This document shows, piece after piece, positions 9,292 to 22,405 of a stretch of DNA of 26,579 nucleotides. Position 1 is the first letter of the stretch; every line of letters starts with the position of its first letter. Source of the stretch: an uncultured Methanosarcinales archaeon (GTDB lineage Archaea > Nanobdellota > Nanobdellia > Woesearchaeales > WJKL01); contig CAYXHN010000001.1 of NCBI GenBank assembly GCA_964464955.1, positions 1 to 26,579 on the forward strand. The letters are read 5' to 3'. Position numbers and translations under genes: made by a program. A model generated the notes under the pieces. It did not search any database. It was not told where the DNA came from and saw only the letters and a program-made list of their open reading frames with translations.

Positions 9292-9897
9292 TTATTCCTC
9301 TGTAAAATCTTCAAGTTTTGCCTTGAATTCGCTTTCTTCTTTGATAAGTCCTTTTTTCTTCATATATTCCTTTGTCAGGATATAGAACAAAAGCCCCAGA
9401 GATTTCTTTCCTTTGTTGTTGCACGGCACGACCAGATCTATCTTATTTGACTGGTTATTTGTGTCGCATAACGCTATGACAGGAATCCCTACCTTTAATG
9501 CATCATCCACTGCATTCCGGTCAGGCCAGGAGTCTGCAACAAGGACAATATCTACTTCCATAAAATCTTTAAGGTTTGAATTTGTCAGGATGCCTGGAGG
9601 ATATCTCCCTGCAAAGAACTTGAATCCTGTGAGTTCTCCAAACTTCTTGACCGCTTTCCAGCCGTTCTCTCTTCTGGATACTATCAATACTCTTTCTGGA
9701 TCATACTGGGCAAGCATGTTTGCTGCAAGCTTAAGCCTCTCATCTATCTCCTGAAGGTTCAGGACTGAAAGACCGTCCGGTCTTGTCTTGTAGATGAACT
9801 TGTTCATGTATCTTGTTCTGAATTTGGTACCGATATGAATTCCTGATTTCAGATATTGTTCCTGTGGAACCAAAAATTCTGGATTGTTTTCTGCCAT
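9292..9897 (-). CDS. rps2: 30S ribosomal protein uS2
   Basis: YLKSGIHIGTK, GRYPPGILTN, PVIALCDTNN and VPCNNKGKKSL; AGAGGT RBS before ATG 9897. Confidence 0.97.
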   Translation of the reverse strand: MAENNPEFLVPQEQYLKSGIHIGTKFRTRYMNKFIYKTRPDGLSVLNLQEIDERLKLAANMLAQYDPERVLIVSRRENGWKAVKKFGELTGFKFFAGRYPPGILTNSNLKDFMEVDIVLVADSWPDRNAVDDALKVGIPVIALCDTNNQSNKIDLVVPCNNKGKKSLGLLFYILTKEYMKKKGLIKEESEFKAKLEDFTEE

Positions 9898-9990
9898 ATT
9901 TTTTACCTCTAGCAATAAGAACTGACATCTTACTGCAATTATTATCACCCTTGCAGTGTGTTATTCAATTTTGAATAACTGGGTAATATC
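9898..9990 (-). promoter_or_regulatory. Structured 5' UTR of rps2 (H-type pseudoknot, candidate r-protein leader)
   Basis: P1 9988-9981 pairs with 9950-9943; P2 9957-9951 pairs with 9938-9932; hairpin 9979-9960; TTTATAAA box at 10010-10017. Confidence 0.65.
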
Positions 9991-10066
9991 ATTGATTATT
10001 TTTAGGTTGTTTATAAAGTTTGTGGAAAAACTTATAACAAAACTTTACTGATGATCATTGCTCTCC

Positions 10067-10169
10067 CTATCTCTGCACTATAGCTGGCAAATTTTTGTAA
10101 TTGAAGATTTCACCATAGATAAATGAGTATTTAACCCTCTGAAAATTCTCTGCTGGGATTTTCAATAAA
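10067..10169. repeat. Dispersed repeat, copy 2
   Basis: Against copy 3: 4 mismatches in the first 43 nt from GCACTA and 4 in the last 34 nt, with a variable centre. Confidence 0.9.
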
Positions 10170-10379
10170 GAATGTATTCTTGCATCCCTGTATGGCATTA
10201 ACCTTGCCTGGTTTGGGATATATTTGTTCCAGCTATGATCTGAGAGGCTGTGTGAAGGGATTTCCCTTTGAAAATGCGGAAGAAACAAGCAGTTATGGTT
10301 CATCTGTATATTTGTCCTTAATACTCTTAGGATATTACCTCTTGTTTATCTGCTGTTTTTCCAGAAAAATAGGAAGTGA
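10170..10379 (+). pseudogene. DUF5652-like small membrane protein pseudogene
   Basis: Reconstruction across frameshifts and TGA stops gives ...IFVPAMI*EAV*(K)GISL*KCGRNKQLWFICIFVLNTLRILPLVYLLFFQKNRK, matching the remembered W-x3-WKG-x-ALWK...WF...NT-x-GILP family pattern. No intact start. Confidence 0.7.
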
Positions 10380-10380
10380 T

Positions 10381-10899
10381 TTAGGAGAATGTTTCCATAT
10401 CCTTGTAGATTGGCCCTTCTGATGTTAATTCTGAGCTTAAGAGTTTGAATTCTTTTACTTGGAATTCTTTATTTTCGAATTTTATCTTTTTTAGTTCTTC
10501 AATGAATGGCTGCTTTTGTTCTGGAGCAAGGAATTTGATTCTTGCTAAGGTTATATGCGGATGGAAATCGAAATCTTTTTTGAAATTGAATTTTTCTAAA
10601 GCTTTTTCTATGTCCTGCTGGAGTTTTGTCAATCTTTTATTTTCCTCTAATCCCAGCCACACTACCCTGATGTAATCCTCATTTGGAAAAACTCCCAGAT
10701 GGGTTGTTTTTAGTGTAAAGGGCTGGAATTTTACCTGTTTTAGTTCTTTGATTATCTCATCTTTTTTCTCTGTGTCTCCTAGAAACTTAAGCGTGAGATG
10801 AAATTTAGAAGGATAAGTAGCATTTGCTTTTGGGAGCTGTTTTTGGATCTCTTTAAAGTGATCTTCATTATCCGGGTCTATCGCTATGAACAATCTCAT
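10381..10899 (-). CDS. thpR: RNA 2',3'-cyclic phosphodiesterase (2H family, LigT/ThpR)
   Basis: MRLFIAID start, two HxT motifs (FHLTL, PHITL), LGVFP, and SSELTSEGPIY; own TTTTATAA box 23 nt upstream. Confidence 0.93.
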   Translation of the reverse strand: MRLFIAIDPDNEDHFKEIQKQLPKANATYPSKFHLTLKFLGDTEKKDEIIKELKQVKFQPFTLKTTHLGVFPNEDYIRVVWLGLEENKRLTKLQQDIEKALEKFNFKKDFDFHPHITLARIKFLAPEQKQPFIEELKKIKFENKEFQVKEFKLLSSELTSEGPIYKDMETFS

Positions 10900-22187: not shown

Positions 22188-22257
22188 ATCAGGAATATAA
22201 CTATAGGGATATATAAATCTTATGATAACAAAAATTTGCTAATCATTATTGCCTGTT

Positions 22258-22387
22258 CTATCTCTGCACTAAAGTAAGAGATATTACAGACTCGCACTAT
22301 AGCTGACAAATTTTTGGAATTGAAAATTTTACCATAAATGAGAGGATATTGAACCTCTGAAAATTCCCTGCTGAAAGTTTCAATAAA
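22258..22387. repeat. Dispersed repeat, copy 3 (with 28-nt insertion)
   Basis: Same arms as copy 2; extra segment bounded by a GCACTA duplication (22266-22271 and 22294-22299). Confidence 0.9.
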
Positions 22388-22405
22388 AAAAATAAAAAAA
22401 AGAAA

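What the first reader, a model, noticed from the sequence alone, without database searches (positions are those of the whole stretch)
9932..10017. Candidate archaeal uS2 (rps2) leader: H-type pseudoknot starting at the predicted TSS
Seen on the mRNA strand: P1 UAUUACCC (9988-9981) pairs with GGGUGAUA (9950-9943), 8 bp with one G-U. P2 ACUGCAA (9957-9951) pairs with UUGCAGU (9938-9932). The P2 5' strand abuts the P1 3' strand (L2=0), L3 is a 4-nt AUAA, and L1 holds a perfect 8-bp hairpin GUUAUUCA-AAAU-UGAAUAAC. A TTTATAAA box at 10017-10010 places the TSS near 9988, i.e. at P1, giving a ~90-nt UTR in a window where many genes look leaderless. Established: E. coli rpsB-tsf is autorepressed by S2 through a structured 5' UTR. 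Inference: an archaeal autoregulatory S2 leader, which I do not know to be described.
Basis: partly seen in the sequence, partly recalled or inferred. Interest (0 to 1): 0.78.

Follow-up and report, generated by a model that had tools for sequence, protein, structure and literature searches.

The report
Conserved pseudoknot leader of archaeal rps2

Summary
The leader folds better than shuffled sequence (z = -4.1).

The element is conserved. A covariance model built from relatives finds exactly one true copy per genome. It hit 62 of 151 sampled genomes of the order, identified as Woesearchaeales from record titles. It also hit 54 of 80 further uS2 loci, and a minimal form sits before 10 of 27 uS2 genes in a second order. 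Every hit with enough flanking sequence lies directly upstream of rps2.

Both interleaved helices covary:
- All six modelled P2 pairs show double-sided changes.
- The third P1 pair is G-C or A-U in 109 of 110 leaders and never mismatched, with at least 20 switches on a uS2 tree.

A BRE/TATA box at a fixed distance puts the transcription start at an invariant A, window 9987, the second base of P1.

Downstream there are two layouts. Either the Shine-Dalgarno sequence abuts P2, or a hairpin carrying a conserved UUCU follows and often competes with P2, as in the window.

Nothing matches in Rfam 15, and I found no description in the searchable literature. Autoregulation by uS2 is the best reading but remains an inference (about 0.6). 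This is a new member of a known kind: a new ribosomal-protein leader family.

An earlier unchecked note of this scan (e1-5109434) reports a similar pseudoknot before rps2 in another genome.

The parts
10010..10024 (-). Promoter: BRE-like CACAAA (10024-10019) followed by the TATA box TTTATAAA (10017-10010).
   Evidence: Base frequencies over 107 leaders show cRnAAA followed by TTTWTAAA at -30 to -23 from an invariant A. The TATAAA-to-P1 distance is 26-28 nt in 23 of 29 loci.
9987..9987 (-). Predicted transcription start (A), the second base of the P1 5' strand. It gives a 90-nt 5' UTR.
   Evidence: This position is A in 107 of 107 leaders and is preceded by a pyrimidine in 99 of 107. The TATA centre lies 26.5 nt upstream. 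This matches canonical archaeal promoter geometry, which is established knowledge. It has not been mapped experimentally.
9981..9988 (-). P1 5' strand, UAUUACCC. The consensus is YAUURCC, and the extra C pairs only in the window's subtype.
9960..9980 (-). Conserved A9980 followed by the optional L1 hairpin: GUUAUUCA, loop AAAU, UGAAUAAC.
   Evidence: The A after CC-N is present in 104 of 107 leaders. L1 is 0-56 nt long. The 94 inserts of 17 nt or more fold with mean z = -3.7 and a median of 9 bp. The same-genus relative L002 keeps the stem through compensatory changes.
9951..9957 (-). P2 5' strand, ACUGCAA.
   Evidence: All six modelled pairs have double-sided changes, and the inner five are 82-99% paired. 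The MAFFT-only alignment agrees.
9943..9950 (-). P1 3' strand, GGGUGAUA. The consensus is (UGA)GGY-N-AUA.
   Evidence: The GG is invariant. The third pair is GC:39, AU:31, GU:2 with none unpaired in A3, and AU:28, GC:25 in A4. It switches at least 20 times on the uS2 tree.
9939..9942 (-). L3, an A-rich loop: AUAA here, AAAAN in the consensus.
   Evidence: L3 is 5 nt long in 103 of 111 leaders. The commonest forms are AAAAU, AAAAA and AAAAC.
9932..9938 (-). P2 3' strand, UUGCAGU.
9912..9936 (-). P3 competitor hairpin: GCAGUAAGA (9936-9928), loop UGUCAGU, UCUUAUUGC (9920-9912). It contains the conserved UUCU at 9921-9918 and shares 5 nt with the P2 3' strand.
   Evidence: P3 is part of the minimum-free-energy fold. 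The isolated hairpin scores -9.4 kcal/mol, against -6.8 for P2 taken as a hairpin. UUCU occurs in 66 of 87 long leaders, against 13 expected. Helices of 8 bp or more that overlap P2 occur in 23 of 86 leaders, against 2.6 expected.
9895..9910 (-). Shine-Dalgarno sequence AGAGGU (9910-9905) and the start codon ATG (9897-9895).
   Evidence: Read from the sequence. The 16S 3' end in relatives is GGAUCACCUCCU. An SD-like sequence lies within 16 nt of the start codon in 77 of 111 leaders.
9292..9897 (-). rps2, encoding a 201-aa uS2 protein. It is the only gene consistently behind the motif.
   Evidence: ORF list. uS2 homologues of 49-93% identity were found in 39 of 41 related genomes. The next gene downstream is convergent in 36 of 51 loci.

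Best explanation
This is a cis-acting leader RNA at the very 5' end of the rps2 mRNA of Woesearchaeota.

**Shown**
- The transcript is predicted to start inside P1.
- It folds into an H-type pseudoknot. P1 is YAUURCC paired with GGY-N-AUA. P2 is 5-7 bp of free sequence. An A-rich 5-nt loop crosses P1. An optional hairpin sits in loop 1.
- The helices, their interleaving, their covariation, the exclusive link to rps2 and the two downstream layouts are all shown.

**Inferred**
- Free uS2, when made in excess over ribosomes under assembly, binds and stabilises the pseudoknot and lowers translation of its own mRNA.
- In about a fifth of the leaders the Shine-Dalgarno sequence starts 0-2 nt after P2. 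A protein-bound pseudoknot there would directly block the small subunit.
- In the others, including the window, a hairpin with a conserved AGA/UCU top lies between the pseudoknot and the Shine-Dalgarno sequence. In many of them it competes with P2 for the same strand. That gives a two-state switch like the E. coli S15 leader.
For: **Specific to rps2**
- The own genome has one hit only.
- 62 of 151 genomes of the order are hit, one true copy each.
- All 70 hits with enough flanking sequence lie upstream of uS2 on the same strand.
- The single exception lies inside a coding region and is a false positive.

**uS2 is the only consistent gene**
- rps2 is monocistronic in 36 of 51 loci.

**The structure is under selection**
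- Covariation score is 0.544 against 0.166 for shuffles and 0.154 or less for slid partners.
- A second set of 54 leaders gives 0.578 against 0.154.
- A structure-blind MAFFT alignment gives 0.454 against 0.165.
- P1 pair 3 was not modelled as a pair, yet it is never mismatched and switches at least 20 times.

**Position fits translational control**
- The fixed promoter puts the start of the transcript at P1.
- The Shine-Dalgarno sequence abuts P2 in 24 of 111 leaders.
- The UUCU hairpin competes with P2 in many others.

**Precedent**
- Bacterial uS2 represses rpsB-tsf through a structured, probably pseudoknotted 5' UTR (PMC10931766; PMC3616713).
- Related lineages without the motif have a leaderless rps2, so the long UTR exists to carry the motif.
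Against: - There are no binding, probing or expression data, and no RNA sequencing run could be listed.
- No resemblance to the rRNA sites of uS2 was detectable with the model. There is only a weak likeness of RCC...UGA-GGY to helix 36, NCC-GNRA-GGU.
- In the long leaders the Shine-Dalgarno sequence lies outside every conserved helix.
- uS2 is a late-assembling protein. In E. coli it needs bS1, which archaea lack.
- The three distal A-U pairs of P1 never covary. A 5-nt L3 is short for crossing a full 7-bp P1.
- Several lineages have lost the element, so it is dispensable.
Confidence: 0.6

Rival explanations
1. The pseudoknot is a constitutive 5'-end structure. It protects the rps2 mRNA from 5'-to-3' exonucleases or tunes translation, and it has no ligand or feedback role.
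For: P1 includes the predicted first nucleotides of the transcript. In the long leaders the Shine-Dalgarno sequence is not part of any conserved helix. The element has been lost in lineages with a leaderless rps2 without obvious replacement.
Against: A mere stabiliser would not need an interleaved pseudoknot. It would not need invariant single-stranded bases (A after CC-N, the UGA junction, the AAAAN loop). It would not need a conserved competitor hairpin. It would also not be confined to one gene in the genome.
Confidence: 0.15
2. The RNA binds something other than uS2. Candidates are a small molecule (a riboswitch), another ribosomal or assembly protein, or a general RNA-binding protein such as L7Ae.
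For: Compact H-type pseudoknots with A-rich third loops are typical ligand pockets, for example preQ1-I and SAM-II (general knowledge). The conserved R·A and A·G juxtaposition next to P1 and the GA-rich tops of some L1 hairpins resemble protein-binding motifs.
Against: No riboswitch or other Rfam family matches, even at E <= 10. A metabolite or general protein sensor would be expected before several genes, but there is one copy per genome and always before rps2. The L1 hairpin is optional.
Confidence: 0.15
3. The conservation acts on DNA, as a promoter-proximal or transcription-factor site, and not on RNA structure.
For: The 5' part of P1 overlaps the initiator region. Its YA-UU bases are conserved without compensatory change.
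Against: P2 has almost no sequence conservation but keeps pairing through all four Watson-Crick types and some G-U pairs. G-U tolerance and strand-specific features (the A-rich loop, UUCU) indicate RNA. The variable-length L1 hairpins preserve pairing rather than sequence.
Confidence: 0.03

Closest known systems
Bacterial S2-interacting leader of rpsB-tsf (Rfam RF00127, t44; Aseev et al. 2008; Fu et al. 2013, PMC3616713)
   Same: It lies in the 5' UTR of the uS2 gene. A pseudoknot is predicted. The RBS is not obviously inside the operator. It is not an obvious rRNA mimic. It serves autogenous repression by uS2.
   Different: It is unrelated in sequence and fold, with no cmscan match even at E <= 10. 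It is much longer and controls a two-gene operon with tsf. It needs bS1. It is bacterial only. The archaeal motif is 40-95 nt, starts at the transcription start and controls rps2 alone.
E. coli rpsO (S15) leader (Rfam RF00114)
   Same: A small H-type pseudoknot next to the RBS is in equilibrium with alternative hairpins. The r-protein stabilises the pseudoknot. This is the best working analogy for the P2/P3 competition.
   Different: The protein is different, there is no sequence similarity, and the S15 pseudoknot includes the start region. Ribosome entrapment is shown there and is untested here.
Archaeal r-leader candidates of Eckert and Weinberg 2020 (S15 in Halobacteria and in Methanomicrobia, eL15 in Euryarchaeota, L4 in Archaeoglobi; PMC7247131)
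   Same: They are covariation-supported RNA motifs upstream of archaeal ribosomal-protein genes, with the ligand inferred from the only consistent gene.
   Different: None concerns uS2 and none is from DPANN archaea. Their models are part of Rfam's coverage (general knowledge), and nothing in Rfam 15 matched the window.
Pseudoknot riboswitch aptamers (preQ1-I, SAM-II/V, guanidine-III)
   Same: They share the H-type topology with an A-rich loop facing the first helix.
   Different: There is no model match. The gene context is a single r-protein gene rather than metabolic or transport genes.

Membership tests
Ribosomal-protein leader (autogenous cis-regulatory RNA) | Lies in the 5' UTR of a ribosomal-protein gene in many genomes and nowhere else. 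| tested here: met
   There is one true hit per genome, and all 70 checkable hits are upstream of uS2. A further 54 of 80 uS2-anchored loci are hit.
Ribosomal-protein leader (autogenous cis-regulatory RNA) | Conserved secondary structure supported by compensatory changes. | tested here: met
   P1 pair 3 switches at least 20 times on the uS2 tree.
Ribosomal-protein leader (autogenous cis-regulatory RNA) | Binds the encoded r-protein. | not testable with these tools
   This needs EMSA or footprinting with recombinant uS2.
Ribosomal-protein leader (autogenous cis-regulatory RNA) | Represses expression when the protein is in excess. | not testable with these tools
   The organisms are uncultured and no RNA runs could be listed.
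Ribosomal-protein leader (autogenous cis-regulatory RNA) | Mimics the rRNA binding site of the protein. This is frequent in such leaders but not obligatory. | tested here: inconclusive
   The leader model finds nothing in five Woesearchaeal rRNA operons (best 10 bits, E = 1.5). There is only a short likeness to helix 36, NCC-GNRA-GGU.
Bacterial S2 leader (Rfam RF00127) | Matches the family covariance model. | tested here: not met
   The family does not appear in the gathering-threshold scan or in the scan at E <= 10.
Bacterial S2 leader (Rfam RF00127) | Precedes an rpsB-tsf operon. | tested here: not met
   rps2 is followed by a convergent gene in 36 of 51 loci.
H-type pseudoknot | Two helices, with the 5' strand of the second lying between the strands of the first, and both helices real. 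| tested here: met
   The order is P1 5', P2 5', P1 3', P2 3' in every leader, and both helices covary.
H-type pseudoknot | Loop lengths able to span the helices. | tested here: inconclusive
   L3 is 5 nt (4 in the window). That is comfortable for the three or four proven G/C pairs of P1 and short for all 7-8 pairs. This judgement rests on general knowledge of pseudoknot stereochemistry, and no 3D model was made.
Pseudoknot riboswitches (preQ1, SAM-II/V, guanidine-III) | Match to the family model and a metabolic gene context. | tested here: not met
   There is no match at E <= 10. The context is rps2 only.

The most novel reading that the evidence does not exclude
Archaea and Bacteria independently evolved pseudoknotted leaders that let uS2 gauge its own synthesis. 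The Woesearchaeal version would be a true two-state switch. uS2 would capture the pseudoknot, whose RCC/GGY stem with adjacent R·A and A·G pairs imitates helix 36 of 16S rRNA, against a competing UUCU hairpin. That would make it the first uS2 operator with a defined rRNA-like recognition element. To my knowledge, and none turned up in the literature searches, it would also be the first regulatory RNA described in DPANN archaea.
Probability: 0.2. Interest if true: 0.75.

Novelty: new member of a known kind. Interest (0 to 1): 0.62.

Why it matters
Ribosomal-protein leaders are the main known means by which prokaryotes balance ribosomal proteins against rRNA. Very few are known in Archaea. I found none described for uS2 outside Bacteria or for the ultra-small DPANN archaea.

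This motif is short (a 40-nt core), strongly supported by covariation and tied to a single-gene transcription unit. That makes it an unusually clean system for three questions:
- How uS2 recognises RNA away from the ribosome.
- Whether S2 autoregulation evolved convergently in two domains.
- How translation is controlled in organisms whose genes are mostly leaderless.

It could be deposited as a new RNA family and would improve annotation of Woesearchaeota genomes.

Tried and rejected
- **Rfam 15.** The whole window at gathering thresholds gave nothing. The region 9850-10450 at E <= 10 gave only four junk miRNA and snoRNA matches on the wrong strand.
- **tRNA or tmRNA.** None found.
- **P1 5' strand as an anti-Shine-Dalgarno element.** With the transcript started at 9987, the window's minimum-free-energy fold pairs UUACC with the SD region GGUAA. 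Across 78 long leaders, own-pair duplex energy (-3.07) is no better than cross-pairing (-3.24) or shuffles (-2.59). The pairing is not conserved.
- **P1 3' strand as a decoy SD.** GAGGUGAU is complementary to the 16S 3' end. Just over half of the leaders have GGC there, which breaks the match.
- **rRNA mimicry by model search.** No hit in the 16S or 23S regions of five relatives. Helix 26 and helix 36 were inspected by eye, and only a short likeness to helix 36 was seen.
- **Second model hit in genome G020.** It lies inside a radical-SAM-like ORF and is a false positive.
- **RNA sequencing evidence for the 5' end.** No RNA run could be listed.
- **The 360-nt gap upstream of the promoter.** It is a dispersed repeat plus unique sequence with no fold signal, and is not part of the leader.
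- **Upstream AUG at 9928.** It opens a 62-aa out-of-frame ORF but is shared only with the same-genus relative. It is not a conserved leader peptide.

Full report
**1. The observation**

- P1: UAUUACCC (9988-9981) pairs with GGGUGAUA (9950-9943).
- L1 hairpin: an 8-bp stem at 9979-9960.
- P2: ACUGCAA (9957-9951) pairs with UUGCAGU (9938-9932).
- L3: AUAA (9942-9939).
- TATA box: TTTATAAA (10017-10010).

The gene behind it is uS2 (ATG 9897-9895, 201 aa), with the Shine-Dalgarno sequence AGAGGU at 9910-9905.

The 96-nt leader folds at -24.7 kcal/mol, against -13.8 +/- 2.7 for shuffles (z = -4.06). That nested fold contains P1 and the L1 hairpin. It uses the P2 3' strand in another 9-bp hairpin, here called P3 (9936-9928 with 9920-9912). 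In the window, therefore, P2 and P3 are mutually exclusive.

**2. Conservation**

uS2 loci were fetched from 30 related genomes, covering 25 GTDB families of the same order, with uS2 identity of 60-93%. All show the same layout upstream of the gene:
- a TATA box;
- about 27 nt further on, UAUURCC;
- a variable insert;
- a 4-9 bp helix of free sequence that encloses UGA-GGY-N-AUA-AAAAN.

A covariance model was built from 28 of these. Only P2 was modelled as pairs, so P1 remains an independent test. The model was then run over whole genomes.

| Search | Result |
|---|---|
| Own genome | 1 hit, the rps2 leader |
| Order, 151 genomes from more than 130 families | 62 genomes hit at E <= 0.01, one true copy each |
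| Same class, outside the order | 1 genome hit (G216) among roughly 130 |
| Phylum sample | nothing new |

- All 70 hits with enough flanking sequence lie directly upstream of uS2 on the same strand.
- One hit was cut off by a contig end.
- One hit lies inside a radical-SAM-like ORF and is a false positive.
- Record titles identify the group as Candidatus Woesearchaeota / Nanoarchaeia.
- In 80 further uS2 loci from that search, 54 match the model.
- At least 13 of the 26 that do not match carry a recognisable variant, mostly the window's own subtype.
- The strict-filter scan missed four of 23 leaders known from the first set whose genomes were in the order sample. The 62 of 151 figure is therefore an underestimate.
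- Around G216, in a second order, 10 of 27 uS2 genes have a minimal form without the L1 hairpin. In most of the others the TATA box lies about 25 nt from the ATG, so those mRNAs are leaderless.

**3. Structure**

| Alignment | Covariation score | Shuffled | Best slid register |
|---|---|---|---|
| A3, 72 leaders, model-fitted | 0.544 | 0.166 | 0.154 |
| A4, 54 further leaders | 0.578 | 0.154 | 0.121 |
| A1, structure-blind MAFFT | 0.454 | 0.165 | 0.136 |

- All six P2 pairs show double-sided changes.
- Examples of P2 variants are CUGCA/UGCAG, CCCGUG/CACGGG, UUGUCC/GGACAA, CUACG/CGUAG and CCAUC/GAUGG.
- In P1, the two C-G pairs are invariant.
- The third P1 pair is G-C in 58 leaders, A-U in 51 and G-U in one, and never mismatched.
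- That pair changes state at least 20 times on a uS2 protein tree.
- The fourth P1 position pairs in only about half of the leaders.
- The distal U-A, A-U and U-A pairs are conserved but never compensated. They may owe their conservation partly to the initiator.
- Next to P1, CC-R-A faces G-A-GG in most leaders, which could form R·A and A·G non-canonical pairs.
- In the window's subtype the A of the junction is G. It is then always opposite C or U (11 of 11).
- L1 is 0-56 nt long and folds as a hairpin when present (94 leaders, mean z = -3.7).
- L3 is 5 nt and A-rich in 103 of 111 leaders.

Because P1 and P2 interleave and both covary, the pseudoknot is real at the level of secondary structure.

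**4. Promoter and 5' end**

Over 107 leaders, a BRE (cRnAAA) and a TATA box (TTTWTAAA) sit at -30 to -23 from an invariant A, which is preceded by a pyrimidine. This is the canonical archaeal promoter geometry. In the window that A is 9987, which gives a 90-nt UTR beginning inside P1. No RNA data could be found to confirm it.

**5. Downstream region**

There are two layouts.
- **Short leaders (24 of 111).** The Shine-Dalgarno sequence begins 0-2 nt after P2, and the start codon follows 9-16 nt after P2.
- **Long leaders (87 of 111).** A further element follows. UUCU occurs within 35 nt in 66 of the 87, against 13 expected. It forms the 3' side of a hairpin with an AGA/UCU top.
  - The 5' strand of that hairpin overlaps the P2 3' strand in a subset. 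Helices of 8 bp or more occur in 23 of 86, against 2.6 expected.
  - This 3' strand changes together with P2. Examples are CAGCG with UGCUG, and AUGG with UCAU.
  - The window belongs to this subset.

**6. Function**

rps2 is the only gene consistently behind the motif, and the next gene is convergent in 36 of 51 loci. Bacterial uS2 is an established autogenous repressor acting on a structured, probably pseudoknotted 5' UTR. The E. coli S15 leader is a precedent for a pseudoknot/hairpin equilibrium that is captured by the protein.

The best reading is therefore an autoregulatory uS2 leader. I put it at about 0.6, because binding and repression are untested and several points count against it:
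- The model shows no rRNA mimicry.
- The Shine-Dalgarno sequence is unpaired in the long leaders.
- Pairing of the P1 5' strand with the Shine-Dalgarno sequence, which appears in the window's fold, is not conserved.

The rivals are a ligand-free 5' stabiliser, a different ligand, and a DNA-level signal. They are listed with their odds in the rival explanations.

**7. Comparison with what is known, and novelty**

- No Rfam 15 family matches.
- The survey of r-leaders in bacteria and archaea lists archaeal candidates only for S15 (two), eL15 and L4 (PMC7247131).
- Text searches for DPANN or Woesearchaeota regulatory RNAs found nothing relevant.
- The element is not a member of the bacterial S2 leader family. 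It fails the model match and has a different operon context. It may nevertheless work like that leader.
- I class it as a new member of a known kind, a new ribosomal-protein leader family.
- An earlier, unchecked first-reader note of this scan (e1-5109434) describes an H-type pseudoknot before rps2 in another archaeal genome. It agrees with this finding, but I could not inspect it.

Noticed in passing
window 10034-10170 (also 22225-22390): A dispersed repeat of about 135 bp lies just upstream of the rps2 promoter. It has about 59 matches (69-93% identity) on more than 25 contigs of the same genome, often head-to-tail in tandem. It looks like a MITE or REP-like element. Folding the enclosing 10030-10375 stretch gives no signal (z = -1.0)..
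   Followed up: partly
window 10040-10350 compared with L002: The same-genus relative has only about 75 nt between the thpR stop and the rps2 TATA box. The window carries about 270-310 extra nucleotides there, made of the repeat above plus unique sequence. This is a recent insertion that left the promoter and leader intact.
   Followed up: partly
L017 (G029), about 60-190 nt upstream of the uS2 start: There is a tandem partial duplication of the 3' half of the leader (P1 3' strand, L3, P2 3' strand and the UUCU hairpin). The copies are separated by about 130 nt of GC-rich structured sequence, possibly an inserted element.
   Followed up: no
promoters of 107 rps2 leaders, -11 to -8 from the predicted start (window 9998-9995 does not fit): A pyrimidine-rich T-Y-C-T stretch is conserved between the TATA box and the start site in most relatives. 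It would be a DNA-level promoter element rather than RNA.
   Followed up: no
L1 hairpins of relatives, e.g. L012, L050, L061, L070 and L023, L083, L086: The apical parts of the optional L1 hairpin fall into recurrent types. One is ...GGCUAUAGG/CUAUGG.... Another is CUGAUACUUGAAG, which could form tandem G·A pairs. They may be sub-family-specific protein or tertiary contacts.
   Followed up: no
L185-L211 (second order of the same class): Most rps2 genes there have the TATA box about 25 nt before the ATG, so the mRNA is leaderless. One family keeps a 40-nt minimal pseudoknot. Gain or loss of the leader therefore tracks the switch between leadered and leaderless rps2.
   Followed up: partly
window 9928-9740, minus strand: An AUG in the P3 loop opens a 62-aa ORF that is out of frame with rps2. 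It is shared only with the same-genus relative, so it is probably not a conserved leader peptide.
   Followed up: partly
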